From assembly GCA_027067775.1 (NCBI GenBank), contig JAMOVK010000149.1, positions 4,379 through 68,378 on the forward strand: DNA of 64,000 bases, in the 5' to 3' direction. The first letter of the stretch is position 1. Each line of letters starts with the position of its first letter. Shown piece after piece: positions 8,881-52,133 of this stretch. The notes under the pieces were generated by a model. That model worked only from the letters and a program-made list of their open reading frames with translations. It had not been told where the DNA came from and made no database searches. A program made the translations under genes and the position numbers. The DNA comes from Deltaproteobacteria bacterium (GTDB lineage: Bacteria > Desulfobacterota > Dissulfuribacteria > Dissulfuribacterales > QOAL01).

Positions 8881-10171
8881 AAAAAAGCATGAAAAGCCTG
8901 GCCTTTTGGTTGTTGGAGAATGGCAGGCAGTCAAAAAAAAGTGTCTTGAAAAGGCCTTCCAATTTCTTGGAGAAAACGAAAAGGACAACATAACCATACT
9001 GAGGGGAGAGGAGGTATCAGAGGCACAGGTAATCGAAGCACTAAAAACAAGGGGGCTGTTTGGCAACAGAAAGGTGGTGATCTACCAAAATCCTGACTTT
9101 CTGCTTGCTGGAAAGAAAAAGGACCCTGTCAAAAAACTCGTTGGTGCCCTTGAAAGGTCCCAGATGAAGAGGGCGGCAAGGCTTCTTGGATCTGTACTTG
9201 CCGAAAAGGGCCTCTATCCTGATACCATTTCGAACCATGAGCCTCATGAATTGCTTTCCTTGCTGGAAACAGATGCCATTAATATTGAACAGGTCCAGGA
9301 ACTTTTGGCCTACCATCTAAAGGAAGTACAAAAGGGACTTGAGACAAGAGGATCAGATGGGCATCTGCTTCTTAACTGGTTAAAAAAAAGAGACAAAGTA
9401 AACAGGCCAGGAAACAGCTTTGTCATAATATATCTGTCACAAAAGCCGCCTGCATCTACCATATTCAAAAAATTTGCTGAACTTTGTCATGTTGAAAATC
9501 TTACGCTTCCTACAGGCAAGGGACAGGAAGCAAAGGCACAGCTGCATCTTTTTGTCAGAGACATGCTGAAAGAACAGGGCAAGGAGATAGACAGCCCTGC
9601 CCTTGAACGCTTCCTGCAACTTGTTGGCACAGGATCTGTTTCTGCCATAAGAAATGAACTTTTAAAGCTTGTGCATCTTTGTGGCGAAAAGGGCAGAATC
9701 TCTGTCCAAGACGTGGAAAGCCTTGTTGTTCGTCACAAGGAAGAAGAAATCTTCAGGCTAACCGAAGCATTTCGGCAAAAAAGGCTTGGCCAGGCCCTTG
9801 AAAGCCTTGATCTTCTTATAGAACAAAACATCCATCCCCTTGCCCTTTTGTCAGCCATCAGAAACAGCGTGCTTAGAATCCTTGCCATAAAGGCTGCTGC
9901 AAATACACTTCAGATCAGCCCGGGATGTCCCTACAACCAGTTCAAAAATACGTGCTGGCCAGACATGAAAAAGACCCTCTCAAAATACAGTGCAACCTCC
10001 CTATCAAAAATGCATCCCTACAGTGCATTTATTCATCTTGGATCACCACACAAAATTCCTACCCTGTATGACATGATAGAAGAGATGGCAGAGCTTGACC
10101 TAGCCCTTAAGGGGAGTAAATTGGATCCTCGTGTCATAATAGAAAAATTTTTTTTCAAATATCTTTCTTGA
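8873..10171 (+). CDS. holA: DNA polymerase III delta subunit (long form)
   Basis: N-terminal ..TRGLFGNRKVVIY.. and C-terminal ..IRNELLKLV..GRISVQDVESLV..EEEIFRLTEAFRQKRLGQALESLDLLIEQNIHPLALLSAI.. follow the HolA layout. The ATG at 8873 overlaps the upstream stop. Confidence 0.65.
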   Translation: MDKKKHEKPGLLVVGEWQAVKKKCLEKAFQFLGENEKDNITILRGEEVSEAQVIEALKTRGLFGNRKVVIYQNPDFLLAGKKKDPVKKLVGALERSQMKRAARLLGSVLAEKGLYPDTISNHEPHELLSLLETDAINIEQVQELLAYHLKEVQKGLETRGSDGHLLLNWLKKRDKVNRPGNSFVIIYLSQKPPASTIFKKFAELCHVENLTLPTGKGQEAKAQLHLFVRDMLKEQGKEIDSPALERFLQLVGTGSVSAIRNELLKLVHLCGEKGRISVQDVESLVVRHKEEEIFRLTEAFRQKRLGQALESLDLLIEQNIHPLALLSAIRNSVLRILAIKAAANTLQISPGCPYNQFKNTCWPDMKKTLSKYSATSLSKMHPYSAFIHLGSPHKIPTLYDMIEEMAELDLALKGSKLDPRVIIEKFFFKYLS

Positions 10172-10210
10172 AGGTTTTTCTTTTTACTCTGCTAAAAAAG
10201 AGGTGAACAG

Positions 10211-10783
10211 TTGTCAGATAATATAAGGGCCATAGGCAAGCTCCTTTTTGAAGTAAGCATGCTCAAGCATACCATGAGAACTGGCTACGCCTTTCTTGGT
10301 AGTGGCAAGGAGAGTGCGGCAGCTCATAGTTTTAACACGGCCTTTATCGCCTATGTACTTGGAAGGATGAGCCCTGGCGTTGATGTCAACCGCATGGTGC
10401 TCATGGCGCTTATCCACGACATACCAGAGGCAAGGACAGGAGATGCCAACGCTGTACACAAAAGATATATAAAAAGAGACGAGGAAAGAGCCTTTGAAGA
10501 TGCAATCAAAGACACCTTTCTGTCAAAGGAACTCTTGGAACTCTACCAGGAATATGAACAGGCCGAGACCCGTGAGGCCATGCTTGTCCAGGATGCAGAC
10601 CAGATAGACATGCTCCTTTCTCTTAGGGAACAGGAAGACTGCGGTAACCCCAACGCCTCTATGTGGATTCCCTTTGTCAAAAACAGACTCAAGACAGAAC
10701 AGGCAAAGAGCCTTGCTGATACGATAATAAAGACCCACTGGGCCAGTTGGTGGATGGACGAATTCAAAAAGGACCCTTCATAG
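10211..10783 (+). CDS. HD-domain phosphohydrolase (YfbR-like 5'-deoxynucleotidase family)
   Basis: H..HSFNTAF.., LIHDIPEARTGD, DADQIDMLL. TTG start with GAGGTG upstream. Confidence 0.75.
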   Translation: MSDNIRAIGKLLFEVSMLKHTMRTGYAFLGSGKESAAAHSFNTAFIAYVLGRMSPGVDVNRMVLMALIHDIPEARTGDANAVHKRYIKRDEERAFEDAIKDTFLSKELLELYQEYEQAETREAMLVQDADQIDMLLSLREQEDCGNPNASMWIPFVKNRLKTEQAKSLADTIIKTHWASWWMDEFKKDPS

Positions 10784-10800
10784 ACTAGGAGGACAGCATC

Positions 10801-11703
10801 TTGAAAAAAACACTTTTTATTTTTTATGCCGCCCTTGCACTTGGTATCCTGTTTTTCACTTACCCTCAAAAGACGTTTGCCAAAGAGAAGACGCATGCAG
10901 ATCATTCAGTCACTCTGTACATAGCGTACACATGCAACACCTGGGGTCAGCTGCAGCCATGTCCTTCCTGAGGAGGCAAGAAAGTCGGGGGAATCACCCG
11001 CCGGGTCAGTTGGATCCGCCAACAAAAAGAACACCACAAGATAGACCTGCTACTTGATGGAGGAAGGACGCTTTTCATACCAGGTAAAAGGATACAACCC
11101 CATGATCAGAAAAAGGCAGAAAAACTTATCAAGTATTATGAAAAGATGGGTTATCAAAACATTTGTGTTTCAAGCACAGACCTTGGAGCAGGACCAGCCT
11201 TTTTGAAAAAACTGGACTACTCGGGAAGCCTCTTCCTGTCTGCCAATGTGCTTGACGAATCAGGCAAAGCCATCTTTGAACCTGGAAGGCTTTACACCGT
11301 CAAGGGTATTAAGATAGGCGTAATAGCCCTTACGGACAGAAGTCCCACAACAACTCTTAGTAAGGGTGAATCCACAATAGTGGCAGACACCATTTCATCC
11401 TTACAAAAAATCTGGAATGCTACTAAGAAAAATGCAGATCTCATCATCCTTCTTACCAGTCTTGATCAAAGAAGTATCAAGAGGCTGGTAAAAAAATTTC
11501 CTGACATAGACCTTGTCATATCAAGCGGCCTTGGAATCCCGACCTATTCACCCTTCAAAGCTGACAAGACCTTAATCGTATCCACCCATCCAAAGGGAAA
11601 ATCCGTTGGCCTTATTGCCCTTAAGATAAAAAAAGGCATCATCTATAAATACGATAACAGGCTTGTAATGCTTAAAGAGTCGCTATTGGAAATGAATTAC
11701 TGA
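10801..11703 (+). CDS. secreted UshA/5'-nucleotidase-like protein with in-frame TGA (candidate selenocysteine at 10969-10971)
   Basis: TTG 10801 is preceded by AGGAGG (10787-10792). The signal-like N-terminus is LKKTLFIFYAALALGILFF. A single in-frame TGA sits inside C-P-S-TGA-G-G. The same frame runs without further stops into track ORF 11146..11703. The joined product follows the UshA N-terminal domain layout (..LLLDGG.., MGYQNICVSSTDLG, LSANV, IKIGVIALTD, DLIILLTSL, DLVISSG). Confidence 0.55.
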
Positions 11704-11896
11704 GATCACCTGGACAAATCAGACTCTTCTTGTCAACAAATCACGGCCTCAACTAGTCTACTAAAAAATAATTTGACCACTCCTGTCCAAATAACGTCAG
11801 GGAAATTTGAAGTTTGAATAGAAAACTGACGAAAGGTCTAAAAGGTATCTGACTGTTTTTTTACAGAAGACTCTTTTAGGGAGGAAATAAAAAGAG

Positions 11897-12670
11897 ATGA
11901 TTAAAAATATAACCTTGGCCCTTTTCTTTTTTGTGACAGCAAGCCTTGGCAACTGTCTTGCCGACTACTCCGGCCTCTGGTGGGATCCATCAAAAGGCGG
12001 ACAAGGGGTGTCGATCTTTCAGAATCAGAATTCCATATGCGGTGCATGGTACCTTTATGATTCTTCTGGCAAAGACATGTGGCTTGTATTTACTGGCGTT
12101 TTGTCACCCGGCAGCACCTTTACTGCCCAGCTTTTGCAGTACACCGGACCGGCTCTTGGAACGCCCTGGGATATAAATCAGGTTAAAAGCAGCAACAAAG
12201 GAACCGTTACCTTGGCATTTAACACCGACACCAGCATCACAATGAACTACACGGTCAACGGTATTAGCGGCACCCTGAATCTGGAGCCTTTTGCAAATGA
12301 TATCGCCTCTATGTACTGGGATCCGGACCAGCCAGGACAAGGGGTGGGGGTATTTATGGAAGGCAAAAACGTGTATGTTGTCTGGTATCTCTATGACAAA
12401 GACGGCAAAGACATGTGGGTAACAACAGGAGCAGACCTGAGCTTGACATCCAGAAAGGCCAACCTCTATGAATTCACTGGCCCAATTTTGGGCAGTGTCT
12501 GGGATCCTTCCCAGGTGCGCCCTTCTGTAGCAGGAAATGCGTCATTGATACTTGGCAATTCTGGCAAAATCCAGATAGTTTATGAAATCCAGGGAATTAC
12601 CGGAACCATGAATCTCGTACCTTTTGTATGCAGCGTTTCCCAGCGGACAAGTGCTGCATCCGGGTCCTAA
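11897..12670 (+). CDS. secreted protein made of two copies of an uncharacterised ~110-aa 'WWDP..GQG' domain
   Basis: Signal peptide MIKNITLALFFFVTASLGNCLA. There is an internal duplication: YSGLWWDPSKGGQGVSIF..AWYLYDSSGKDMW..TG..GTLNLEPF versus ASMYWDPDQPGQGVGVF..VWYLYDKDGKDMW..TG..GTMNLVPF. Confidence 0.7.
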   Translation: MIKNITLALFFFVTASLGNCLADYSGLWWDPSKGGQGVSIFQNQNSICGAWYLYDSSGKDMWLVFTGVLSPGSTFTAQLLQYTGPALGTPWDINQVKSSNKGTVTLAFNTDTSITMNYTVNGISGTLNLEPFANDIASMYWDPDQPGQGVGVFMEGKNVYVVWYLYDKDGKDMWVTTGADLSLTSRKANLYEFTGPILGSVWDPSQVRPSVAGNASLILGNSGKIQIVYEIQGITGTMNLVPFVCSVSQRTSAASGS

Positions 12671-12813: not shown

Positions 12814-15219
12814 ATGAGCATGAAATGCAAAAATCTGAAAAAAACCTGCTGGAAGGGATTTGTTTTATTAGCTATTGGCCTTTGGCTTCTTTCATATCCA
12901 AGGCCTAGTCAAGCAATGGCTAAAGGTGGTGATGAAAAAGCCCTGCTGGAACAGGCTGCCATTGATAAAGCAAAAGAACTTTCCATGAAAAAAGTACCAG
13001 ACATGGACTGGCGGCTTGCCGAAATGCTTCGCTCAGGCGTTCATCACCACGCCCAGTCCCGTGACGGTCAGCTTTTTACAGTTTCATTGACAGTAAAAGA
13101 TGATGATTTGAACAAGATCGTCAACAGGCTCAAATTTTTTGGGGTGCAAATCCAGTCCAAAAGAAAAAACAGGCTTCAGATTAAGGTGGACAAAGGCCGC
13201 CTGAGACAAATCGCTTCCTGGAAAGAAACGGCCTACGTCCGCATGCCTTCTGTTGCCAAGGCCCAGGAAATAATTTCAGAAGCCGTATCTGCAACCGGAG
13301 CCCAGGCTATGCAGCAGGCAGGTTTTAGTGGAAAAGGGGTAAAAATTGGCATAATTGATCTTGGTTTTTTTGGCTACAGCCTTCTTCTTGGCTTGGAACT
13401 GCCTGATTCTGTAAAAAAGAAAAATTTTCGTCACGATGCGTGTGAATTTTCGTTTTGTCCAAGCCAAAAACACGGGACAGCGGTAGCTGAGTTAATCCAT
13501 GACCTTGCTCCAGAGGCAGAGCTCTATATGGTTTCTGTTGCGACTGTAGATGAATTCATGGACGCGGTCGACTGGTTGGAACACAGGGGAGTTGACATCG
13601 TTAGCTGTTCACTTGGATACTGGTTATGCGGCCCTGTAGATGGTACCGGATGGTGCAGCAAAAAGGCTGGCGAAATGAGAGGTAAAGGCATACTACCCGT
13701 ATTTGCAGCAGGAAATGCCGCCAAAAGCCACTGGTTTGGCCCGAATAAGGACGAAGATGGTGACTCCTTGATAGAGGTTGATGAACAGGTCCAGGCTCTC
13801 TTTTTCTCCTCTTCTTCGTATCAGGAAGTAACTGTTGCAGCAAACTGGAATGACTGGGGAAAAGACCCAGAGGATGCCCATTCTGATCAAGACATAGATC
13901 TTCTTGTGCTAAGCCCTATTCCCTACAGTACGGAGGTTGAAACTGTCGGAGCCTCCTTTAATAACCAGTCTGGCAGACATGGACATATGCCCATAGAGGC
14001 TACAACCTTCAATGCAGAGCCTGGAAGGCAATACTACATTTTCCTGGTAAACTCAAACACCAACAGACAGGTAACCGTGCATGTTTATCTGGAATGCAAA
14101 TGGAACAGTGAGATTACTCCACATATTGAGGCCCAATCCATACTGCAGCCAGCAGACAGTCCTGATGTTCTTACTGTAGGTGCTGCGGATCTTTCAAATC
14201 ATCTCCTTGACTATTCAAGTCACGGGCCTACCTGGAACGGCGTTGTCAAACCAGATGTTACCGGCCTTTCCGGTCTTGCTACGCTTAGCATATGGGATTT
14301 TGCCGGCACAAGCGCTGCGACCCCCACTGTTGCAGGAGCGGCAGCATTGTTGAAAGAGGCACATCCAAAGTGGGGGCCAGATCAGCTTCAGGCCGCCCTT
14401 GAGCTTCTTTCTAAAGATATCTACAAACCCGGACAGGACAACGGCAGTGGCTGTGGGCTTATAGATGTCTCTAGGGCGGCAAATCTTGGACAAGGACCTG
14501 CTGCCGGCTTTTGGTGGAATCCTCAAAAGGACGGATCAGGTTTTAGTATGGAAAGAGCTGAAGGGACGGATTTTTTGGCTGTTTACACTTACAAGCCCCA
14601 GCAAAACGACTCCATACCGGTATGGTTTACTGGTTCTGGAAAGGCATTTTCATCCCTGACAGGGCCCCTTAATCTTCTTACATGGACAGGATGGCCTCTT
14701 GGCAGCGCTCCAGGTAACTTTGCATCCTCTTATGTGGCTGAGATATCTTTAATATATCTTGACGAAACACACGGGCTTTTGCAGGTGAGGGATACAGCCA
14801 CCAACACAGTAGAAAAACAGCCTGTTGAAAGATTTGTATTCGCAAAAGGGGCCAGCAGCAGTGACAGCCGGACCGGCTGGTGGTGGGACCCGGCCTTTCC
14901 AGGCAATGGCATATTCATGGATTTTCAGTCAGGCACACTCTTTGGCGCCTGGTATCATTACGATGAAAAGGGACTTCCGCGGTGGTGGACCTTTTCCGGA
15001 AGGTTACCAGACCAAGATCAAAAGACTCTAAAGGCCGACATAATCCAGTGGCACGGCGGCCCTTGTCTTTCGTGTCCCCAGATTAAACCCTCTGCTTCGA
15101 TTGTAGGTACTGTGGAAATTGCATTCAAAAATGGTTCACCATCCATCCTAAAATGGCACACAGCTGGAGGCCTATCTGGCAGGTATAATCTTGAACGGTT
15201 TCATTTTTATAAAAAATAG
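12814..15219 (+). CDS. S8 family (subtilisin-like) serine peptidase with two C-terminal 'WWxP..GxG' domains
   Basis: Signal peptide. The catalytic triad is in frame: Asp in GVKIGIIDLG (gat 13357), His in HGTAVAEL (cac 13471), Ser in GTSAATPTVAG (agc 14311), plus the oxyanion AAGN. The C-terminal ~240 aa repeat the domain of the upstream ORF. Confidence 0.85.
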   Translation: MSMKCKNLKKTCWKGFVLLAIGLWLLSYPRPSQAMAKGGDEKALLEQAAIDKAKELSMKKVPDMDWRLAEMLRSGVHHHAQSRDGQLFTVSLTVKDDDLNKIVNRLKFFGVQIQSKRKNRLQIKVDKGRLRQIASWKETAYVRMPSVAKAQEIISEAVSATGAQAMQQAGFSGKGVKIGIIDLGFFGYSLLLGLELPDSVKKKNFRHDACEFSFCPSQKHGTAVAELIHDLAPEAELYMVSVATVDEFMDAVDWLEHRGVDIVSCSLGYWLCGPVDGTGWCSKKAGEMRGKGILPVFAAGNAAKSHWFGPNKDEDGDSLIEVDEQVQALFFSSSSYQEVTVAANWNDWGKDPEDAHSDQDIDLLVLSPIPYSTEVETVGASFNNQSGRHGHMPIEATTFNAEPGRQYYIFLVNSNTNRQVTVHVYLECKWNSEITPHIEAQSILQPADSPDVLTVGAADLSNHLLDYSSHGPTWNGVVKPDVTGLSGLATLSIWDFAGTSAATPTVAGAAALLKEAHPKWGPDQLQAALELLSKDIYKPGQDNGSGCGLIDVSRAANLGQGPAAGFWWNPQKDGSGFSMERAEGTDFLAVYTYKPQQNDSIPVWFTGSGKAFSSLTGPLNLLTWTGWPLGSAPGNFASSYVAEISLIYLDETHGLLQVRDTATNTVEKQPVERFVFAKGASSSDSRTGWWWDPAFPGNGIFMDFQSGTLFGAWYHYDEKGLPRWWTFSGRLPDQDQKTLKADIIQWHGGPCLSCPQIKPSASIVGTVEIAFKNGSPSILKWHTAGGLSGRYNLERFHFYKK

Positions 15220-27284: not shown

Positions 27285-28370
27285 TCAAGGCGTTGGAACC
27301 GATGGAATAAGCCCAAGGAGCCTTGCTATGTCGTTGTAAAACACCAACAGCATTAAAGAGCCCAAGATAAAAAGACCAATTTGTTGGGCAAGTTGCATCT
27401 GCCTAGCAGTAAGAGGGCTTCCTTTAATGGCCTCTATGGCAAAAAAGAGCAGATGTCCTCCGTCTAGCACGGGTATAGGCAGCAGATTCAGGATCCCAAG
27501 ATTTACCGACAGTACGGCCATGAAATAGAATAGGTTTACCAATCCCTGCTGGGCCTGCTGACCAGCCATCTGGGCAATCATGATGGGGCCGCCAAGAGTG
27601 GTAAGCGGAACAACCCGTTCAATAATCTTTACAAAGCCCTCCCATGTGAGCTTTGTAATCTCCCATGTCCTTTGAAAGGACATGAAAAACGCCCTTATGG
27701 GATCGACCTTTTCAATTTTTATGTTTCCCGAGGCTGTAACCCCAATAAGAGGAACCTTAACCTTCTCGCCGAATATATTCTTGATGGTGCTGACCTTTGG
27801 CCTGACTTTCACGGCAAGCACCTTCTGGCCCCGTTTGATCTTTAAGAAAATCTCCTGCCCTTTACTGGCCTTTATGGCTTTTGAAACATCGTCCCACGTT
27901 CTGACCTTTATATGATTAACCTCCAAAAAGACATCGCCTTTCTGAAGGCCGGCCTGGGCAGCGGGAGAGTCCGGCTTCACAGAGCCTATCTCGGGAAGAA
28001 GTATCGGATTTCCATAGATAAGAAGGATGAAAAAAAAGATTACCTGGGCCAGAAGAAAGTTGGCAAAAGGACCTGCCGCCACAACCAGGGCCCTCTGATA
28101 GACTGGTCTGTGAGAGAATGAAAGATGACGTTCTTCAGGAGGAACCTCCTCATTTGGAAGCTCACCTAGCATCTTTACAAAGCCACCCAGCGGAATGGCT
28201 GAGATACAGTAGTCTGTGCCATTTTTTACAATACCCCAGATCCTTGGACCAAAACCGATGGAGAATTTGAGAACCCGTATGCCAAAGAGACGGGCCACTG
28301 TAAAATGGCCAAGTTCATGAAAAAATATGAGTCCACTTAGAACTAGTAAGAAGGACCAAATTGTCGTCAT
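27285..28370 (-). CDS. rseP: RIP (site-2) zinc metalloprotease RseP
   Basis: HELGHF, a PDZ region (AAQAGLQKGDV) and NLLPIPVLDGGHLL. Confidence 0.9.
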   Translation of the reverse strand: MTTIWSFLLVLSGLIFFHELGHFTVARLFGIRVLKFSIGFGPRIWGIVKNGTDYCISAIPLGGFVKMLGELPNEEVPPEERHLSFSHRPVYQRALVVAAGPFANFLLAQVIFFFILLIYGNPILLPEIGSVKPDSPAAQAGLQKGDVFLEVNHIKVRTWDDVSKAIKASKGQEIFLKIKRGQKVLAVKVRPKVSTIKNIFGEKVKVPLIGVTASGNIKIEKVDPIRAFFMSFQRTWEITKLTWEGFVKIIERVVPLTTLGGPIMIAQMAGQQAQQGLVNLFYFMAVLSVNLGILNLLPIPVLDGGHLLFFAIEAIKGSPLTARQMQLAQQIGLFILGSLMLLVFYNDIARLLGLIPSVPTP

Positions 28371-34771: not shown

Positions 34772-35710
34772 CTAAGAGCTCTTGACCCACTCAAGAATGA
34801 AGGTCGGCCTCTTGCGAACGGCCTGAAATATACGGCCTATATACTCTCCAAGCAGTCCCAAAGCAAAAAACTGACACCCCACAAGGAAAAAAAGCGCTGC
34901 GAAAAGGGTGAATACCCCCTCTGCAGCCCATCCTGGCCCATAGTAAAGTCTCAACCCAATAATTACTACAGCAGCGACCATTCCAAATAGGGCCATGAAC
35001 AGTCCCACAAAAAAAAGAATGCGAAGGGGCCACATGGAAAACCCTGTCATAAGATCAAGCTGAAGACCAAACAGTTTCAACAAGGAATACTTGGAACTAC
35101 CCCCAGCCCTTTCTTCATGACGAACGTAAATCTCTATGGGATTTCTTGCAAAAAACGTGGCAAGGGCAGGTATAAAGGTGCGATACTCGGGATTTTCAAG
35201 TATCCCCTTTACCACTTCCCTGCTGTAACCTCTCAGCATGCATCCAAAGTCATGAAGCGAGATACCAGATATCCTTGCAACGAGCCTGTTTGTGATTCTA
35301 GAGGCAATTTTTCTGAAACGGCTGTCTTGTCTTCCTTCCCTGATAGTACCAATAAGATCGTGCCCATTTTCAAACTGCTCAACAAGTTTGGGTATCTCTT
35401 CTGGAGGATTTTGAAGGTCGGCATCCATGGTTATGAGCCAGTCACCCCTTGCCCTTGAAAAACCGGCCATAACTGCTGCATGTTGGCCAAAATTTCTTGC
35501 AAGGTTGACAATTACAAGTCCTGACCTTCTTTTCAGCTCGCTTTCAAGGATTTCCAGGGTCTTGTCTGTTGACCCATCATTGATGCAGATGACCTCAAAG
35601 GGCATGTCAAGGCCCTGAAGCACAGGAAACAGCCTGTCAAAAAGAGGACAGATGTTATCCTCTTCGTTGTACATGGGAATTATTACAGAAAGAAGCCTTT
35701 TCTTTACCAT
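34772..35710 (-). CDS. family 2 glycosyltransferase, polyprenyl-phosphate sugar transferase type (GtrB/ArnC/DPM1-like)
   Basis: LSVIIPMYNEE.., ..INDGSTD.., ..MDADLQNPPEEI.. and two C-terminal TM helices. Confidence 0.85.
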   Translation of the reverse strand: MVKKRLLSVIIPMYNEEDNICPLFDRLFPVLQGLDMPFEVICINDGSTDKTLEILESELKRRSGLVIVNLARNFGQHAAVMAGFSRARGDWLITMDADLQNPPEEIPKLVEQFENGHDLIGTIREGRQDSRFRKIASRITNRLVARISGISLHDFGCMLRGYSREVVKGILENPEYRTFIPALATFFARNPIEIYVRHEERAGGSSKYSLLKLFGLQLDLMTGFSMWPLRILFFVGLFMALFGMVAAVVIIGLRLYYGPGWAAEGVFTLFAALFFLVGCQFFALGLLGEYIGRIFQAVRKRPTFILEWVKSS

Positions 35711-36711
35711 TTCTTTACAACAAGGAGGGATTCAAAGGCCTCCTTAAGTCTGATAAAGGATTCATGTTCTCCGCCCTTGTCGGGATGAAGTCTCTGGGCC
35801 TGTTTTTTGTAAAAACGCACAAACTCCCTTTCACTCATGCTGTCAAATTCTCTTTTTGACATTCCCATAACCCTGAGATTGTCTTCTTGAGTGTAAGAAG
35901 GTGTCTCTGATGAGGCGGCAGAAACATATTCCCTTCCCCAGGCTGTACCAGCCCCCTTGAATGCCACATCAAAGTAACGAATGGCATAGCGCCTGAGATA
36001 AGGGTGAAGGCCCACAAAAGAAACCGGACGCGCACCGGCGTCTAAATAAGAGGGGTCGGAATTCATGCGACAAAGCTCTTCTATGAAATAGTCATCCATA
36101 AGGCCCTGGTCTTGGGCATCAGGCACGAACCTGGAGAGCCTGCTGGAAAAACGTCCAGGAAGGGCAAAAATGGCATATACATATGCCTTTAGCTCCCATG
36201 GCCTAAGATCCATTTCCATGAACTTAAAATTTTGCTCCAACTCGTCTCTTGACTTGTTAAGGAGCCTGTTTAGAAAGACAAGGGGCTCGCCCATTAAAGG
36301 TTCTATATTTATTTGGAGAAACTTCAAAAAAAGCATCCTGCGCCTGTCAAAGGGGTGAATGGAACCCTGCATCTGCCTCAGTTCTTCCCTTGAAAAACGG
36401 CTTTTTTTACGCGAACCCCTGCCCCGGATGCCACCAAAGTCATCTATCCTCTGTCTAATCACCGGATCTATAAATGGCCAGAATATCTCTTCCAAGTCCG
36501 CATAATCGTATTTGATCCCCCTTTCATAAAGGGCATCCTCGATCTGGGAAGAGATAAGAAAGACCCGTTCGTCAATATACTCCACATACTCTTCTGGATC
36601 GCTTCCAAGATCAAACACGTCTGTACTTATCCAGACACCGTCCTTGTTCTTGGAGGAATGGCGAAGAAAGAATCGCACCCCTTCAGACTCTCTTTCCATT
36701 GCAAGATACAT
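35704..36711 (-). CDS. C-terminal J-domain protein with uncharacterised ~270-aa N-terminal region
   Basis: C-terminus ..FYKKQAQRLHPDKGGEHESFIRLKEAFESLL carries the HPD tripeptide of J domains. The stop overlaps the GT2 start (ATGGTAA). Confidence 0.7.
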   Translation of the reverse strand: MYLAMERESEGVRFFLRHSSKNKDGVWISTDVFDLGSDPEEYVEYIDERVFLISSQIEDALYERGIKYDYADLEEIFWPFIDPVIRQRIDDFGGIRGRGSRKKSRFSREELRQMQGSIHPFDRRRMLFLKFLQINIEPLMGEPLVFLNRLLNKSRDELEQNFKFMEMDLRPWELKAYVYAIFALPGRFSSRLSRFVPDAQDQGLMDDYFIEELCRMNSDPSYLDAGARPVSFVGLHPYLRRYAIRYFDVAFKGAGTAWGREYVSAASSETPSYTQEDNLRVMGMSKREFDSMSEREFVRFYKKQAQRLHPDKGGEHESFIRLKEAFESLLVVKKW

Positions 36712-42558: not shown

Positions 42559-43620
42559 ATGATAATCCAACGATATATAGCAAGGAGATACTGTGCCTAT
42601 CTGGGAATATTGTTTTTTGGCCTCACGGGTCTTTATCTTCTAATAGAGGCATTTGAAAGGCTTCCAGACTTCCTTGGAAAGGGAGTCAGTTTTCTCACAA
42701 TACTGGTCTACTTTGCACTGTTATGCCCTAAGATCATATATCAACTCTGTCCCCTTGCCATACTCCTGGCTGGCCTTCTTACCATGGTCACCCTTGGAAA
42801 AAGCAAAGAGATAATGGCCATGCGTTCGGTGGGCATCTCACCGAGGCGGATTTTCATGCCCGTAATGGCCTCTGCCACATCTTTTGCCGTTCTCTTTATG
42901 GCAATGAACCTCTTTTTGGTGCCAAAGGCACAAGAGGCAGCGGGGTTTATTCTCCAGATGGAACTTGGAGCGGGCAAGAAAAAAGGGATTATGGTTCGAG
43001 GAGGACAACTGTTTTACAGGGGCAAGGATTCCATCCTGTCTGCAGAGCTTATTGTACCAGATGCACAGGAGCTTTCTGGCATCCAGTGGCTGTTTTTTGA
43101 TCCAGACTACTCCTTGAGGGAGTTCATTGCAGCCCCAGCTGCAAAATTTCTTAAAGGAAAATGGTATTTTTTTAATGGCCTTCATCAGACCAAAAATCAG
43201 GTGAACTTTTTCAAGACCCTAGAAAAGATACTGCCAGTGTCTCCAAAAGATCTTGCAGCCATTGAGACTCCTGTGGAAGAAGCCAGTCCGTGGCTCCTGC
43301 TGAGGGCTGTAAAAAGACTAAAAAGACTGGGCCTGCCTGCCTACAGCCAAGAGATGGTTCTTTTAAGCTACTTTTTTTATCCTTTCCTTGGCGTCTCCTT
43401 ACTATTTTTCTGCCTGCCAGTGGCCTTTTACAGGCTCCAGGGAGGGGCTGCCTTTGGCCTGATACTCGGGACCCTGGTGGCCTTTTCAGTATGGGCGCTA
43501 TGGAATATGCTTGTATCAATGGGAAAAACAGGAACGATTCCACCCGTGGCCTCAGCCATGCTTCCCCACGCCTTTCTTATAGGTAGCGGGATATGGCTAA
43601 GAAAAAAAATGAAATTTTAG
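42559..43620 (+). CDS. lptG: LPS export ABC transporter permease LptG
   Basis: MIIQRYIARRY.. Same YjgP/YjgQ architecture, immediately after lptF. Confidence 0.8.
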   Translation: MIIQRYIARRYCAYLGILFFGLTGLYLLIEAFERLPDFLGKGVSFLTILVYFALLCPKIIYQLCPLAILLAGLLTMVTLGKSKEIMAMRSVGISPRRIFMPVMASATSFAVLFMAMNLFLVPKAQEAAGFILQMELGAGKKKGIMVRGGQLFYRGKDSILSAELIVPDAQELSGIQWLFFDPDYSLREFIAAPAAKFLKGKWYFFNGLHQTKNQVNFFKTLEKILPVSPKDLAAIETPVEEASPWLLLRAVKRLKRLGLPAYSQEMVLLSYFFYPFLGVSLLFFCLPVAFYRLQGGAAFGLILGTLVAFSVWALWNMLVSMGKTGTIPPVASAMLPHAFLIGSGIWLRKKMKF

Positions 43621-43631
43621 GGGATGTGACA

Positions 43632-44264
43632 ATGGACAAAAAAACACTTGTAGAAGAGATAATAAGGCGGCTTGAAAAAGAGTACGGCCAGGTCCGTACT
43701 GCCCTCAAGTTTAACAACCCCTTTGAGCTCCTTGTTGCCGTTGTACTTTCTGCCCAGTGCACAGACGAAAGGGTCAATGCCATAACGCCACAACTTTTCA
43801 AACGATTTCCAGGCCCAAGGGAAATGGCCCAGGCGGACCTTTCGGAGATCGAACAACTCGTGCGGTCCTGCAGCTTCTTCAGGAACAAGGCAAAAAACAT
43901 ACACGAGGCAGCCAAAATGATTGTTGGTGAGTTTGGAGGCAAGGTGCCGGATACCATGGAGGACCTCATCAGACTTCCTGGAGTTGCCAGGAAAACCGCC
44001 AACGTGGTTCTTTACAACGCCTTTGGGAAAAACGAGGGGATTGCAGTAGACACCCATGTAAAAAGATTGGTGAACAGGCTTGGCATTACAGAGCAGACCA
44101 ATCCGGTAAAGATTGAACAGGAACTGATGAAACTTGTACCAAGAAAATACTGGGGCCTTTTTACATATCTTTTGATCGAGCATGGCAGAAAGGTCTGCAG
44201 GGCCAAAAGGCCTGATTGCAAAAGATGCGTATTGAAAGACATCTGCCCGATGGGAAAGTCTTGA
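43632..44264 (+). CDS. nth: endonuclease III
   Basis: ..NPFELLVAVVLSAQCTDERVN.., HhH-GPD (..LPGVARKTANVVL..) and the 4Fe-4S cluster CRAKRPDCKRCVLKDIC. Start 43632 preferred; 43593 is possible. Confidence 0.9.
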   Translation: MDKKTLVEEIIRRLEKEYGQVRTALKFNNPFELLVAVVLSAQCTDERVNAITPQLFKRFPGPREMAQADLSEIEQLVRSCSFFRNKAKNIHEAAKMIVGEFGGKVPDTMEDLIRLPGVARKTANVVLYNAFGKNEGIAVDTHVKRLVNRLGITEQTNPVKIEQELMKLVPRKYWGLFTYLLIEHGRKVCRAKRPDCKRCVLKDICPMGKS

Positions 44265-44270
44265 GGAAGG

Positions 44271-45110
44271 TTGAAAATGAAAGATTACGTCCTTCAGGTT
44301 CAGGATGCTGTTGAATTTCTGAAAGAAAAACTACCCTTTGTCCCCACTGTAACACTTATAGTAGGAACAGGCCTGGGAGAACTGGTCCAGGCCATGGAGA
44401 CAGAGGTTGTAATGGATTATGGCGAGATTCCAAACTTTCCGGTATCAACGGCCCCTGACCATGCAGGAAGGCTTCACGTAGGCAGAATAGGCGGTACAAG
44501 ATGTGCCCTTTTCCAAGGCCGTTTTCATTTTTATGAAGGCTATTCAACAAAACAGCTGGCCCTTCCTGTAAGGGCTATGTCTCTTTTTGGCTCCAGGGTG
44601 CTCATTGCATGTAATGCAGCAGGGGGGCTAAATCTGGACTTTGAATCAGGCGACCTCATGCTCATAAAAGACCATATAAATCTCATTCCAGAAAGTCCAT
44701 TAAGGGGAGAAAACGTGGATGAATGGGGTCCGCGTTTCCCTGACATGTCCAGGGCCTACAGCAAAAGTCTGAGAGAGCTTGCAAGACGAGTTGGGGCAAG
44801 CAGTGGAGTACTTCTCAGGGAAGGGGTGTTTGTTGCAGTGCCTGGCCCTCAGCTTGAGACACCGGCAGAGACTAGATACCTGAGGCTTATAGGTGCTGAC
44901 GCCGTAGCCATGTCCCTTGTACCCGAGGTCATTACAGCGGTTCATGGAGGCATGAAGGTGCTAGGGATCTCCGTTATTGCCAATGTCAACAATCCAGATG
45001 ATTTCACACCTATATTCATAGAAGATGTAATAGCCCAGGCCAAGAAGGCCGAAGTCAGGCTTGAACGACTGCTAATAGGAATTCTGACAGAGTTTGAAGA
45101 CCATGAATGA
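44271..45110 (+). CDS. purine (or methylthioinosine) nucleoside phosphorylase, trimeric PunA/MTAP class
   Basis: ..GTGLG.., ..HAGRL..G.., ..FQGRFHFYEGY.., ..NAAGGLN.., ..GPQLETPAE... Confidence 0.85.
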   Translation: MKMKDYVLQVQDAVEFLKEKLPFVPTVTLIVGTGLGELVQAMETEVVMDYGEIPNFPVSTAPDHAGRLHVGRIGGTRCALFQGRFHFYEGYSTKQLALPVRAMSLFGSRVLIACNAAGGLNLDFESGDLMLIKDHINLIPESPLRGENVDEWGPRFPDMSRAYSKSLRELARRVGASSGVLLREGVFVAVPGPQLETPAETRYLRLIGADAVAMSLVPEVITAVHGGMKVLGISVIANVNNPDDFTPIFIEDVIAQAKKAEVRLERLLIGILTEFEDHE

Positions 45111-47211: not shown

Positions 47212-49497
47212 TCAAAGAAGTCTTTCAAGCTCCACCTTCACCTGTTGAATTACATTATTGGTTGTATTTGACGTGGACAATCTAAAAATTTTGGCTGTTG
47301 GATACCAGGATGATTCAGAGCCGTGAACAGGCCAGCACCAATGACTTTGACCCTTGATCAGGATCCATACAGGTATTCCCAAGCCCCCAGCCAGATGTAC
47401 TACAGGACAATCAATAGTGATTACCAGATCAAGCTGCGTAATAAAGGCCGCCATATGCGCAAGATTGACCATTTTACGATCTAGAGGTTCCATTCCACAT
47501 TCTCCAGCCATCTTCTCGTGGACAGGATTTGACAGGCTTTGAAGACCAAAAAAATCGATCCCTTCTAAACTTGTTAATGGAATAAAATCTTCTAGACCAA
47601 ATGGCTGGAATAATGAACTTTCATTAGACCAAAAAAGTCCGACCTTCAATTCCCCATGTCCTTTAATAGGGGAAACCGCCACCTCTGATGGCACCTTTAG
47701 GTAAGGTGGTCTTTCTCCTGCATCTGGAACCAAAGGGTCAAATATAGATTTAAGACATGGAAGTCTCAACAAAGGACAGTAAACATCAAACTCATGGTCA
47801 TGAATATTAAACGGCAACCGGGCCAAAGAAACTCCAGGAACCTCTTCCATAAGAACCTGGAGCGGTTCTGGTGATGCTATTATCAAATGTTCACAAAGTT
47901 GAGATACAACAGAAAAAAGCCTGGCTAAAACTATGGCGTCTTGAATGCTTTGCTCCAGATGGATCAGCAGTTTCTTCCTGCCAAGGGCCTCACCAGACCA
48001 GATGGGATTCAAAGAATTAAATGCCTGAAAACCGGCCGTTTTTCTCCGCCACTGATATTCTTTCCAGCCCTGGCGGAACCTTCCAAGGCGCAGTAAAAGC
48101 CTGCCTTTGGCATAGTGGGCTGCAGCATAACCCCTGTCTGCCTCTAGAGCCCTGTCATAAAATTCAAGTGCCCTGTTATACTGTTCAAGCTCTACAAAAC
48201 AGTTTCCAAGAAGCAGACAGGCACTGGCATTTTCTGGATTATCTCTGTAGACCTTTTCCAAGATGTCAACAGCCTCTTCCCAATTGCCAAGGGCTGCTAA
48301 CGTATCTCCAAGAATATATGCGGCCCTGGTGTTATGAGGAGCCATCTTGAGTAACACCTTTAGCTTCTCTGCAGCATCCCGCAGCTTTCCATCCCTACGA
48401 AGAACAATGGCCTCATTAATCCTTGCCTCATCCGGGTCCTGTTGGGCCAAATCCTTGAGAGCCTCCTTTGGCAAAGAATATGACGTTCTTACAAGTGGAT
48501 CAGCAACATCTAAAATTACAGGGTTCTTCCATGGCAAAATCTCAACTGCAAAAATCTCATGAACCCCTGCATCAAACTGCAACCACCCAAGAACATTGCC
48601 CTTTCTCAAATCTACCAACCAAATACCACAAAAACGTTCTGAAAAACGTTTTGTCAGCGGAAGTCCTGAAAATACTGCAGTCTCTCTGACCCTAGAAAGT
48701 CCAATCAGGGCATAAGGCCCTACGAATGATATCCCCCTGCAGAAACCAGGAACTTCAGCAACAGTTTCTGATTTGCCATCTTCAGGATTTACAGTGATGA
48801 TCTTGCCTGTACCAGACTCAAGTACATAGAGCTTACCATTATACCATCGGGGAGAATGTGGCATGGAAAGACCTCTGCGGATTATTCGACCAGTTTCTAT
48901 ATCCACCAGGATTCCTCCAGAGGTCTTTGTCTCTCTCCATCCTCCAGGTGTATCAGCCTCTCCAAGGGCTGTAACGTAAGCAGGCCTCCCATCTCGCATG
49001 GCTATACCATTTAGATGGCACCTGTCACTCAAGTCATAGGCGCTAATGAAAGGAGGCCTCCATCGTGGCACTACACTATGTTCATGGTCTAAAGTACACA
49101 GACAGGACATTCGCGTATTTAAAAACCACAGTTCCCCTTCACTATCAAAAGCCATTTCGTGAATATCTATGTCTCCAGTTATATGTAACCTTCGGGGAAT
49201 AAAACATGCATCGTGACAGGTGGCAGAATCTACCTTAGAGGCCACATCTGGCATATTAAAATAGTCCCAGATCTGATATCCGGTCCCTACGGATAGTCTT
49301 GCTCCATTTGCTGCCATGCCCATTGGTTTTGACATGGCCACAAAATGGGTATTAAGCACCCTACCAGGCCTGAGAAGTATTAGCCTGCCTGCCTGATATG
49401 TGGAAATCAAGACAGAAACCCCTGCCTTAAGCAGAAATTCATTAAAGACAGGGGTATATTTGCTAGAAAAATTTGCTTGAGAGGGATGATTAGCCAT
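47212..49497 (-). CDS. three-part fusion: TIGR03032/DUF4915-like N-terminal domain + TPR repeats + GT9-like (heptosyltransferase-fold) C-terminal domain
   Basis: The N-terminal ~340 aa (..ISTYQAGRL..., ..HEMAFD..G.LWF.NT..SCL.., ..DRCHLNG.A...G.P.YVTA.., ..[19 protein letters not shown]..) match my memory of the uncharacterised TIGR03032 family. The middle has TPR-like repeats (..[14 protein letters not shown]...). The C-terminus ..[28 protein letters not shown]....[10 protein letters not shown] has the GT9-like pattern. The ATG overlaps the stop of the upstream surface-protein gene (gATGGCTAA). Confidence 0.7.
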
Positions 49498-51817: not shown

Positions 51818-52133
51818 TACTCCTTCTCCCTTCGTCCTGGCAAACAACGACCCAAAGGAGGTTGGTTTTTCAGAATTGCTGTCCCCTGAAAAGAAACAAT
51901 GTAGTACCCAAAAAGTAGTCGTTTTTGCCGTGAATAAAGCTATAGATCTTTATGTTACTTGCCCATCACTAAAATACCCACCGAGTTCTTTAAAAATAAA
52001 CAGCTCCTTTTTATGCGCAGCAAGAGCTTCATTCCTTAATATTCAAGGGTACCATTGTCAATATATAAATGGGAAAGGGGAAAATACAGCCATCTCCAAA
52101 GCAAACAATCCCAATAACAGTGAATAGAACTTT

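What the first reader, a model, noticed from the sequence alone, without database searches (positions are those of the whole stretch)
10801..11703. Candidate new selenoprotein: secreted UshA/5'-nucleotidase-like protein with UGA in a C-P-S-U motif
Seen in sequence. A TTG start with a strong AGGAGG SD opens an ORF encoding a signal peptide and the first third of a UshA-like metallophosphoesterase-fold domain. That ORF hits a single TGA (10969-10971) and continues in the same frame, with no further stop, into the annotated ORF 11146..11703. The context is ..LQPCPS-TGA-GGKKVGGITRR.., a CxxU arrangement like redox-active selenoproteins. The UGA sits where this family normally has its first metal/active-site loop, and the canonical D.H.. 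metal ligands look replaced (LYIAYTCNTWG). A possible bacterial SECIS-type hairpin lies 15 nt downstream: CGGGGG-AAUCA-CCCgCCG at 10986-11003, with the apical loop ~22 nt from the UGA. If the top pair opens, the loop starts with G. The alternative reading is an 56-codon signal-peptide stub plus a leaderless C-terminal fragment starting at 11146, which makes little biological sense. I vaguely recall 'UshA-like' being listed among metagenome-predicted selenoprotein families but cannot verify that here.
Basis: partly seen in the sequence, partly recalled or inferred. Interest (0 to 1): 0.75.

Follow-up and report, generated by a model that had tools for sequence, protein, structure and literature searches.

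The report
Mis-annotated UshA-like periplasmic selenoprotein gene
The in-frame TGA is almost certainly a selenocysteine codon in a secreted, metal-free relative of 5'-nucleotidase/SoxB; this kind of selenoprotein is already known, but this particular branch is truncated by gene callers and missed by the curated models.

Summary
TTG 10801, with a Shine-Dalgarno site at 10787-10792, opens a 300-codon frame. The frame holds a single in-frame TGA (10969-10971) and ends at TGA 11701-11703.

All 13 orthologues recovered (52-65% identical among the eight aligned, all from Desulfobacterota metagenome-assembled genomes) keep TGA at the same codon, in AYTCNTWGQxxPCPS-TGA-GGKxVGGITRR. Purifying selection is as strong or stronger around the TGA than in the annotated part: pN/pS is 0.10 just upstream, 0.33 downstream and 0.38 in the annotated part. 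Distant homologues have Cys at this position (QPCPYC, PCGC). Every orthologue has a hairpin that meets the bacterial SECIS rules, against about 4-6% of control positions. TGA is otherwise a normal stop in this window.

The protein has the SoxB/5'-nucleotidase N-domain fold, but every metal ligand is replaced, so it is not a phosphoesterase. It most likely works as a periplasmic Cys-x-x-Sec redox protein. The substrate is unknown.

It is not a new kind. UshA-like selenoproteins have been listed since 2008 and NCBIfam has two models. This branch scores below both cut-offs (179 vs 275; 95 vs 140) and lacks the cytochrome domain of family 1, so it is an uncurated, systematically truncated branch of a known kind. 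Sec machinery and selenium incorporation could not be tested.

The parts
10787..10792 (+). Shine-Dalgarno AGGAGG, 8 nt before the TTG start
   Evidence: Read from the sequence. The upstream HD-domain gene ends at 10783, so the two genes are probably co-transcribed (inference).
10801..11703 (+). Full selenoprotein CDS: 300 codons plus the stop, with UGA57 read as Sec
   Evidence: Frame is open apart from one TGA. 13 of 13 orthologues have the same structure. pN/pS is well below 1 on both sides of the TGA. NCBIfam hits: UshA-like (seleno)protein models at E = 1e-52 and 5e-27.
10801..10881 (+). Sec-pathway signal peptide MKKTLFIFYAALALGILFFTYPQKTFA, with predicted cleavage after TFA
   Evidence: The sequence has the n-region (KK), h-region and c-region pattern (TFA) and no twin-arginine motif. 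All orthologues have a hydrophobic N-terminus at the same place that evolves freely (pN/pS 0.82). The cleavage site is inferred; no signal-peptide predictor was available.
10927..10947 (+). Degenerate metal motif I: Y43-T-C45-N46-T-W48-G49 in place of T-N-D-x-H-G
   Evidence: In the alignment with homologues, P0042 GDVHG and L018 HTNDTWG fall on these columns. All residues are invariant in the 8 aligned orthologues.
10960..10971 (+). C54-P55-S56-U57 motif; Sec codon TGA at 10969-10971
   Evidence: TGT CCT TCC TGA. Invariant in 13 of 13 orthologues. The Sec column holds Cys in P0051 (CPYC), P0042, P0043 and P0015 (CGC).
10985..11004 (+). Hairpin 1, a candidate SECIS: UCGG(G)GG-AAUCAC-CC(G)CCGG. 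An alternative register is CGGG[GGAAUCA]CCCG at 10986-11000.
   Evidence: RNAalifold. Energies of -9 to -15 kcal/mol in the orthologues. 96% of cells are paired but there is no covariation. Arg codon bias CGC/CGG is 16/16 here against 11% elsewhere in the same genes. The loop starts 18-20 nt after the UGA.
11002..11018 (+). Hairpin 2, a candidate SECIS: CGGGUC[AGUUG]GAUCCG, loop 36 nt after the UGA with G at loop position 2
   Evidence: Present in 11 of 13 orthologues. One pair covaries (C-G x6, U-A x4, U-G x2). The two sequences that lack it (L007, L013) instead have a perfect 8-bp hairpin with a G(U/G)AU loop 19 nt after the UGA.
11065..11067 (+). Arg89 codon, in DGGR in place of the metal-bridging Asp of motif II (GD)
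   Evidence: PDB profile alignments DAGD/DGGR. Invariant in the orthologues.
11146..11703 (+). The truncated ORF that public annotation reports (185 aa)
   Evidence: P0001 is identical to this ORF. All 12 other clade members in the protein database (P0002-P0013) are likewise called from a start downstream of the TGA.
11701..11703 (+). True stop codon, also TGA
   Evidence: TGA ends 20 of the 50 long ORFs in the window, so the genetic code is standard.
10211..10783 (+). Upstream neighbour: HD-domain YfbR-like protein, 17 nt before the start (context only)
   Evidence: Pfam HD/YfbR-like. Adjacent in all loci checked, but the whole neighbourhood is syntenic, so this says little about function.

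Best explanation
Positions 10801-11703 are one gene for a roughly 30-kDa exported selenoprotein.

How the UGA is decoded. The ribosome reads UGA57 (10969-10971) as selenocysteine. SelB carrying Sec-tRNA(Sec) is recruited by a stem-loop in the next ~50 nt of coding sequence (hairpin 1 at 10985-11004 and/or hairpin 2 at 11002-11018). The second TGA, at 11701, has no such element and terminates translation.

What the protein is. An N-terminal Sec-pathway signal peptide sends it to the periplasm. The mature protein keeps the alpha/beta sandwich of the N-terminal domain of 5'-nucleotidase/SoxB. It has lost all dimetal ligands: D-x-H to N46/W48, GD to GR89, GNH to S125/T126, H to S220, and GHxH to G243/G245. 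It also lacks the C-terminal substrate-binding domain, so it is not a phosphoesterase.

How it probably works. The functional centre is the invariant loop C54-P-S-U57 that follows strand beta-1. I propose that U57 is the nucleophile and cycles with C54 through a selenenylsulfide. Clade-specific invariant C45 and C122 may join a relay. Invariant basic residues (R89, K60, H263, K265, K267) may replace the metal ions in holding an anionic substrate, such as a sulfur, selenium or arsenic oxyanion or a sulfane.

Shown: the gene structure, conservation of the UGA, Cys/Sec pairing in homologues, the hairpins, the fold and the loss of ligands. Inferred: SelB use, periplasmic location, redox chemistry and the anionic substrate.

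Where it belongs. It is part of the known UshA-like selenoprotein superfamily, as an uncurated single-domain CxxU branch.
For: Gene structure.

Conserved UGA:
- All seven loci from a scan of 185,579 species genomes, plus five more contigs, have TGA at the same codon inside AYTCNTWGQxxPCPS*GGKxVGGI(T/S)(R/H)R.
- Selection by region: pN/pS is 0.10 for codons 39-56, 0.33 for 58-115 and 0.38 for 116-300, with pS of 0.63-0.75.
- Cys at the Sec column in homologues P0051 (QPCPYC), P0042 (QCGC), P0043 and P0015 (PCGC).

Standard genetic code: TGA ends 20 of 50 long ORFs, including this gene.

SECIS:
- Hairpins are conserved.
- A hairpin that meets the published rules (PMC13188914, Fig. 2 legend, read) at -7.4 kcal/mol or better occurs in 13 of 13 orthologues, against 3.5-6% of other in-frame positions.
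- GC-rich Arg codons in the 3' arm in 16 of 16 cases, against 11% elsewhere in the same genes.
- One covarying pair in hairpin 2.

Family: NF041198 at E = 1e-52 and NF049981 at E = 5e-27. The literature lists UshA-like selenoproteins with CxU and CxxU motifs.

Fold: an AlphaFold model of residues 58-300 (pLDDT 79.7, pTM 0.82) matches SoxB (TM 0.77) and 5'-nucleotidases.

Ligand loss. No Pfam Metallophos hit.
Against: - No selA, selB, selC or selD, and no second selenoprotein gene, was found in the 64-kb window. Sec decoding in this genome is therefore assumed from the taxon and from the gene itself.
[quoted passage not shown] The coding constraint of VGGITRR could explain part of its conservation.
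- The one covarying pair in hairpin 2 involves amino-acid-changing positions (V69/I72 versus A69/V72), three residues apart in the protein, so co-variation at the protein level could be an alternative cause.
- No Cys-containing orthologue exists inside the clade; Cys forms occur only at 23-31% identity.
- No full-length structure model could be obtained, so the geometry of C45, C54, U57, C122 and R89 is unknown.
- The proposed chemistry has no direct evidence. No member of the superfamily has a published function.
Confidence: 0.82

Rival explanations
1. It is simply a member of the already curated 'UshA-like (seleno)protein family 2' (NF049981, CxxU). Nothing about it would then be new except a missed annotation.
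For: The motif type is the same (CxxU; PMC13188914). It is a single domain. The 262-position profile starts at residue 39, and residues 39-300 number exactly 262. Among all homologues scanned, this clade has the highest NF049981 score.
Against: All 8 orthologues scanned score about 95 bits against a curated cut-off of 140, and the last 40 profile positions are unmatched. The clade scores higher on the N-terminal half of NF041198 (179 bits). I could not obtain a true NF049981 member for direct comparison.
Confidence: 0.2
2. The TGA is a real stop. The locus is either a pseudogene or two products: a 56-residue secreted stub and a leaderless 185-aa fragment starting at ATG 11146.
For: This is how every gene caller annotated it. 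A single-sequence fold of the region is no better than shuffles. No Sec machinery is seen in the window.
Against: The TGA is kept in 13 of 13 orthologues whose synonymous sites are near saturation. Codons 58-115, which neither product would contain, are under purifying selection in this frame (pN/pS 0.33) and encode helix alpha-1 and the DGGR strand of the fold. The most conserved segment of the whole protein abuts the TGA (pN/pS 0.10). The fragment would lack the signal peptide that all orthologues keep.
Confidence: 0.04
3. UGA is read through as a standard amino acid (Trp, Gly or Cys), through an altered genetic code or near-cognate suppression, and not as Sec.
For: Selenium incorporation was not measured. 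No tRNA-Sec was found in the window.
Against: TGA terminates 20 of 50 long ORFs in the window, including this gene. Two same-frame ORF pairs split by a TGA are plainly separate genes. The position aligns with Cys in homologues, and with TGA in curated UshA-like selenoprotein relatives. SECIS-rule hairpins follow the TGA in 13 of 13 orthologues.
Confidence: 0.04
4. The Cys/Sec cluster (C45, C54, U57, C122) binds a metal or metalloid in place of the lost dimetal site. The protein would then be a periplasmic binding protein or chaperone (for example for Cu, Hg, As or Ni) rather than a redox enzyme.
For: There are four invariant chalcogen residues, two of them at former metal-motif positions. Relatives have vicinal CGC, CGU, UGU or UU motifs. 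One relative lies next to an ArsP-type permease gene.
Against: Family 1 fuses the same domain to c-type cytochromes, which fits electron transfer better. No geometry is available. The neighbouring genes in the window are housekeeping genes.
Confidence: 0.12

Closest known systems
UshA-like (seleno)protein family 2, NCBIfam NF049981 (CxxU; listed as 'GenBank annotated' in PMC13188914)
   Same: Single UshA-like domain, CxxU motif and one Sec. The profile covers the mature protein from residue 39. Match at E = 5e-27.
   Different: All 8 orthologues scanned score about 95 bits, below the 140-bit cut-off, and the C-terminal 40 profile positions are unmatched. No true member could be retrieved for direct comparison.
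UshA-like (seleno)protein, NCBIfam NF041198 'UshA_like_PCGU' (COG0737 UshA-like selenoprotein of the GOS study, PMC2398784)
   Same: Best sequence match (179 bits, E = 1e-52) over profile positions 5-269. Sec is at the same loop position, followed by GG(I/L)xRR. Exported protein with a degenerate metal site.
   Different: Below the 275-bit cut-off. The motif is C-P-S-U rather than P-C-G-U (one extra residue). The window protein lacks the C-terminal c554-like cytochrome half (profile positions 270-519; no CxxCH motif) that true members P0043 and P0056 carry.
Thiosulfohydrolase SoxB (PDB 2WDC, 4UWQ)
   Same: Closest solved fold for residues 58-300 (Foldseek E = 1e-13, TM 0.77, 23-24% identity). 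Periplasmic. Acts on an anionic sulfur substrate.
   Different: SoxB is a dimanganese hydrolase with a second domain. Here all metal ligands are replaced and the protein is a single domain. TIGR04486 scores 44 bits against a cut-off of 550.
UshA / 5'-nucleotidase (metallophosphoesterase plus 5'-nucleotidase C domain; PDB 1USH, 2Z1A, CD73)
   Same: N-domain fold (TM about 0.7). Shared GG(V/I)(A/T)RR...LLLD(A/G)G framework.
   Different: No Pfam Metallophos or 5_nucleotid_C hit. The D-x-H, GD, GNH, H and GHxH ligands are all replaced. No C-terminal domain.
Arsenate reductase ArsC of the LMW-phosphatase type (functional analogy only, from my own knowledge)
   Same: A phosphatase fold that binds an oxyanion and reduces it through a cysteine relay. 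This is the kind of re-tooling proposed here.
   Different: Unrelated fold and no Sec. The analogy is a hypothesis and was not tested.

Membership tests
Bacterial selenoprotein (general criteria) | In-frame UGA conserved in orthologues, with coding conservation on both sides | tested here: met
   TGA at the same codon in 13 of 13 orthologues. pN/pS is 0.10 upstream and 0.33 downstream.
Bacterial selenoprotein (general criteria) | Homologues with Cys aligned to the Sec | tested here: met
   P0051 CPYC, and P0042, P0043 and P0015 CGC, align at the Sec column. These share only 23-31% identity; there is no Cys orthologue within the clade.
Bacterial selenoprotein (general criteria) | [quoted passage not shown] 2) | tested here: inconclusive
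   Geometry and loop rules are met in 13 of 13 orthologues, against 3.5-6% of control positions. In the window the rule-satisfying hairpin alone is -7.4 kcal/mol, just short of -7.5; the local region folds at -16.7. Which register is functional is unresolved. Covariation is limited to one pair. No Rfam family matched.
Bacterial selenoprotein (general criteria) | selA, selB, selC and selD in the same genome | not testable with these tools
   Only tRNA-Gly was found in the window. None of the 20 window ORFs scanned was a sel gene.
Bacterial selenoprotein (general criteria) | Selenium in the polypeptide (75Se labelling or mass spectrometry) | not testable with these tools
   Requires an experiment.
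NF041198 UshA_like_PCGU | HMM score at or above the curated cut-off of 275 bits | tested here: not met
   179.3 bits, which is also the best of the 8 orthologues.
NF041198 UshA_like_PCGU | P-C-G-U (CxU) motif | tested here: not met
   The motif is P-C-P-S-U, with one extra residue.
NF041198 UshA_like_PCGU | C-terminal c-type cytochrome half (profile positions 270-519) | tested here: not met
   The match covers profile positions 5-269 only. The protein ends at residue 300 and has no CxxCH motif. True members P0043 and P0056 match positions 7-518 and hit the Cyt554 model.
NF049981 UshA_like_Sel_2 | HMM score at or above the curated cut-off of 140 bits | tested here: not met
   94.9 bits. The best E-value among the 8 orthologues is 3.8e-27.
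NF049981 UshA_like_Sel_2 | CxxU motif, single domain of about 260 residues | tested here: met
   C54-P-S-U57. The mature region 39-300 is 262 residues.
5'-nucleotidase / UshA metallophosphoesterase | Dimetal ligand motifs D-x-H, GD, GNH(D/E), H, GHxH | tested here: not met
   The ligands are replaced by N46/W48, R89, S125/T126, S220 and G243/G245. No Pfam hit at E of 1 or below.
5'-nucleotidase / UshA metallophosphoesterase | C-terminal 5'-nucleotidase substrate-binding domain | tested here: not met
   The protein ends at residue 300, and matches cover only the N-domain of the ~500-residue targets.
5'-nucleotidase / UshA metallophosphoesterase | N-domain alpha/beta sandwich fold | tested here: met
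   Model of residues 58-300 has pTM 0.82. Foldseek TM is 0.70-0.77 to SoxB, UshA and CD73.
SoxB thiosulfohydrolase (TIGR04486) | HMM score at or above 550 bits, with a dimanganese site | tested here: not met
   44.2 bits. Ligands absent.

The most novel reading that the evidence does not exclude
This clade, together with the other uncurated branches seen here, would show that the SoxB/5'-nucleotidase fold has been repeatedly stripped of its metals and rebuilt as a periplasmic chalcogen-based catalyst. In that reading Arg89 and a Cys45/Cys54/Sec57/Cys122 relay replace the dimetal centre and reduce or transfer an anionic sulfur, selenium or arsenic species. The clade would be a third UshA-like selenoprotein family, found only as Sec forms. 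Relatives would push the same loop to two selenocysteines (U-G-U and U-U).
Probability: 0.15. Interest if true: 0.55.

Novelty: new member of a known kind. Interest (0 to 1): 0.3.

Why it matters
For annotation: every public copy of this gene found is truncated to the 180-240 residues after the Sec codon. Many of the listed relatives in a 1.8-billion-protein library start at 'MGG(I/L)ARR', that is, just after a Sec codon. A dedicated model for this branch, and for the short PCGU forms, would repair a systematic error in Desulfobacterota and Chloroflexi-like metagenome-assembled genomes.

For biology: no UshA-like selenoprotein has a known function. This branch is the simplest form, with a single domain, no haem and no metal ligands. 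That makes it a convenient entry point for asking what a Cys-x-x-Sec site is doing on a phosphoesterase scaffold in the periplasm of sulfur-cycling anaerobes.

It does not change any general principle.

Tried and rejected
- Rfam, whole window at gathering threshold and 10900-11100 at E of 10 or below: no SECIS family and nothing meaningful.
- Pfam: no hit at all.
The version with 'X' was accepted, but I submitted it without an alignment.
- The afdb50 fold library was unavailable.
- Search for other selenoprotein genes in the window: two same-frame ORF pairs split by a TGA (43587-45110 on the + strand; 28412-26568 on the - strand) are just adjacent genes, nth|PNP-like and rseP|tsaB-like. A scan for C..U / U..C contexts gave only out-of-frame noise.
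- Twenty large ORFs scanned with NCBIfam: housekeeping genes, no sel genes.
- Source names for clade proteins: none apart from one 'hypothetical protein'.
- Literature search for a function of UshA-like selenoproteins: only family listings.
- Promoter and terminator scan of 9900-12100: no more sites than in shuffles.
- Genomic context: the whole neighbourhood (spoU, fur, proC, SDF transporter, holA-like, HD) is syntenic in all orthologues, so adjacency gives no functional clue.
- Alternative genetic code: rejected.
Full report
**Observation.** The sequence is as described.
- AGGAGG (10787-10792) precedes a TTG at 10801.
- The frame encodes MKKTLFIFYAALALGILFFTYPQKTFA|KEK..., reaches TGA at 10969-10971 after ...LQPCPS, and stays open for another 243 codons to TGA 11701-11703.
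- Public gene callers report only ATG 11146-11703 (P0001, 185 aa, identical).
On this sequence alone it folds no better than shuffles (z = -0.22), so everything depends on comparison with other sequences.

**Is the TGA decoded?** A pattern scan of one genome per species (185,579 species) found seven loci that encode relatives. All are metagenome-assembled genomes labelled Desulfobacterales, Deltaproteobacteria or Thermodesulfobacteriota. Five more orthologues were fetched through their truncated protein records.
- All 13 sequences have TGA at the same codon, inside the nearly invariant string AYTCNTWGQxxPCPS-TGA-GGK(K/S/R)VGGI(T/S)(R/H)R. Each is preceded by its own divergent signal peptide.
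- The eight aligned proteins are 52-65% identical, and their synonymous sites are close to saturation (pS 0.63-0.75).
- pN/pS by region: 0.82 in the signal peptide, 0.10 in codons 39-56 just before the TGA, 0.33 in codons 58-115, and 0.38 in the annotated part. Codons 58-115 lie between the TGA and the annotated ATG, so neither a stub nor a fragment would contain them.
- One polypeptide is therefore selected across the TGA, and the residues next to the TGA are the most constrained in the protein.
- TGA is an ordinary stop in this genome. It ends 20 of 50 long ORFs and this gene itself. Two other same-frame ORF pairs split by a TGA are plainly separate genes.
- In an alignment with distant homologues, the Sec column holds Cys: QPCPYC in P0051, QCGC in P0042, PCGC in P0043 and P0015. 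This is the classical Sec/Cys pairing. It appears only at 23-31% identity; no Cys orthologue exists within the clade.

**SECIS.** The published bacterial model asks for a 4-16 bp stem, a 3-9 nt loop with G in one of its first two positions, 16-37 nt between the UGA and the loop, and an MFE of -7.5 kcal/mol or lower (PMC13188914, Fig. 2 legend).
- Hairpin 1 (10985-11004, UCGG(G)GG-AAUCAC-CC(G)CCGG) is the most stable element, at -9 to -15 kcal/mol in the orthologues. It is paired in 96% of cells but barely varies, so it offers no covariation.
- The best register of hairpin 1 lacks the loop G. The register CGGG[GGAAUCA]CCCG (spacing 18 nt) has it.
- With 13 sequences, RNAalifold adds hairpin 2 (11002-11018, CGGGUC[AGUUG]GAUCCG, spacing 36 nt). 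One of its pairs covaries: C-G x6, U-A x4, U-G x2.
- The two sequences that lack hairpin 2 (L007, L013) instead have a perfect 8-bp stem with a G(U/G)AU tetraloop 19 nt after the UGA.
- A perfect hairpin meeting the geometry and loop rules, at -7.4 kcal/mol or better, follows the UGA in 13 of 13 sequences. The same test at other in-frame positions of the same genes passes in 3.5-6% of cases. The window's own hairpin 2 is -7.4 kcal/mol, just short of the -7.5 rule on its own.
- The two Arg codons in the 3' arm of hairpin 1 are CGC/CGG in 16 of 16 cases. Those codons make up 11% of Arg codons elsewhere in the same genes and 14% in the window.
- I conclude that an RNA element is under selection there. 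I cannot say which register binds SelB.
- The covarying pair changes amino acids (V69/I72 versus A69/V72), three residues apart in the protein. Co-variation at the protein level could therefore be an alternative cause.

**What the protein is.**
- Pfam finds nothing.
- NCBIfam finds NF041198 'UshA-like (seleno)protein' (179 bits, profile positions 5-269 of 519), NF049981 'UshA-like (seleno)protein family 2' (95 bits, positions 1-222 of 262) and SoxB (44 bits).
- An AlphaFold model of residues 58-300, built with 13 sequences, has pLDDT 79.7 and pTM 0.82. Its best solved neighbours are SoxB (TM 0.77) and the N-domains of bacterial and human 5'-nucleotidases.
- Profile alignments to solved 5'-nucleotidases, and the family alignment, place replaced residues at every ligand position:
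  - D-x-H becomes N46/W48.
  - The bridging Asp of GD becomes R89.
  - GNH becomes S124-S125-T126.
  - The motif-IV His becomes S220.
  - GHxH becomes S242-G243-L244-G245.
- The C-terminal substrate-binding domain of 5'-nucleotidases is absent.
- This is therefore a metallophosphoesterase fold without its metals.
- The invariant features are the C54-P-S-U57 loop, two clade-specific cysteines (C45 at the old motif I, C122 just before the old motif III) and several basic residues (K60, R67, R68, R89, H263, K265, K267).
- The signal peptide has no twin-arginine motif. That fits export of an unfolded, cofactor-free protein (inference).

**Mechanism (inferred).**
- Across the superfamily, the loop after strand beta-1 always carries two neighbouring chalcogen residues: CGC, CGU, CPYC or CPSU, and in two relatives UGU or UU.
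- In true NF041198 members, the same domain is fused to a c554-like cytochrome.
- This points to a redox-active thiol/selenol couple that exchanges electrons with periplasmic carriers.
- In the window protein I propose that U57 attacks the substrate and is resolved by C54.
- The replacement of the metal-bridging Asp by Arg suggests that the pocket still binds an anion.
- The substrate is unknown. A sulfur, selenium or arsenic oxyanion or a sulfane is a reasonable guess, given the SoxB relationship and the host lineage, but nothing tests it.
- A metal- or metalloid-binding role for the four chalcogen residues is a live alternative.

**Relation to what is known.** UshA-like (COG0737) selenoproteins were reported from the GOS metagenomes with a CxU motif (PMC2398784). 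Reviews list them (PMC9312934), and the 2026 review lists NF041198 (CxU) and 'family 2' NF049981 (CxxU) (PMC13188914). The kind is therefore known.

Membership in either curated family fails.
- All eight orthologues scanned are below both cut-offs.
- Against NF041198, the window protein also has the wrong motif spacing and lacks the cytochrome half.
- Against NF049981, it shares the motif type and size but scores 95 bits against a cut-off of 140.
- Of 20 other homologues scanned, none reached NF049981, and this clade scored highest. It is probably the nearest uncurated neighbour of family 2.

The exhaustive representative search found 3,965 relatives at E of 1e-3 or below, but only 8 at 1e-30 or below, so the clade is small. 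Many of the listed hits start at MGG(I/L)ARR, which is the signature of truncation after a Sec codon.

**Verdict.** This is a real, mis-annotated selenoprotein gene. It is a new, uncurated member of a known kind, and its function is unknown. Confidence that it is a selenoprotein of the UshA-like superfamily is about 0.8. The remaining doubt is the untested Sec machinery and the absence of direct evidence for selenium in the protein.

Noticed in passing
L010:1483-1488; L011:1483-1491 (L012 carries the same sequence from another sample): Distant single-domain relatives (the 'MGGLARRA...' clade, 24-27% identical) have two in-frame TGA codons in the same loop. L010 reads ...VDT-TGA-TGA-VPVQMGGLARR (U-U) and L011 reads ...ATN-TGA-GGC-TGA-GLAMGGLARR (U-G-U), where other family members have C-G-C or C-G-U. 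Each has a lipoprotein-like leader and a beta-1 strand upstream in the same frame. Both lie just downstream of an aldehyde:ferredoxin oxidoreductase (AFOR) gene. The review lists only one Sec for UshA-like families, so di-Sec forms may be unreported.
   Followed up: partly
L018:536-1297 and L019:601-1371, with about 50 nt upstream of each: Other short, cytochrome-less relatives carry the classical P-C-G-U motif (L018 HTNDTWGHYTPCG-TGA; L019 LPCG-TGA). Their truncated protein records score only 118-126 bits on NF041198 (cut-off 275). Single-domain PCGU forms are probably missed by the curated model too.
   Followed up: partly
Proteins P0036, P0040, P0045, P0047, P0056, P0058, P0060, P0166, P0168-P0176 (not in the window): Many database entries of this superfamily begin 'MGG(I/L)(A/S)(R/K)(R/K)'. 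Gene callers appear to start them at the V/M codon a few residues after a Sec codon, so truncation looks systematic across the family.
   Followed up: partly
window 11897-12670 (+) and 12814-15219 (+): The 257-aa secreted protein just downstream consists of two copies of a ~120-aa module (GxWWDPxxxGxG ... WYxYDxxGxxxW). The same module occurs twice at the C-terminus of the adjacent 801-aa S8 subtilisin-like peptidase (37% identity, E = 2e-16). No family was assigned. The pair is conserved in L001.
   Followed up: partly
window 44262-44264 (+) and 27285-27287 (-): Two places where consecutive genes share a frame and are separated by a single TGA: endonuclease III-like | purine nucleoside phosphorylase-like, and RseP-like | TsaB-like. 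They mimic the selenoprotein signature but each half is a complete, unrelated protein.
   Followed up: yes
window 10211-10783 (+): An HD-domain YfbR-like (5'-deoxynucleotidase family) gene ends 17 nt before the selenoprotein start in the window. It is adjacent in all loci checked (L001-L007, L013, L014). A nucleotidase-family gene next to a nucleotidase-fold protein is curious, but the whole region is syntenic, so this may mean nothing.
   Followed up: partly
window 47215-49497 (-) and 49493-51847 (-): A TIGR03032-family protein fused to TPR repeats lies next to a 785-aa protein with 'choice-of-anchor Q' and tandem-95 repeat domains. Two further large ORFs (56050-57525 and 35707-36711) have no NCBIfam match.
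   Followed up: no
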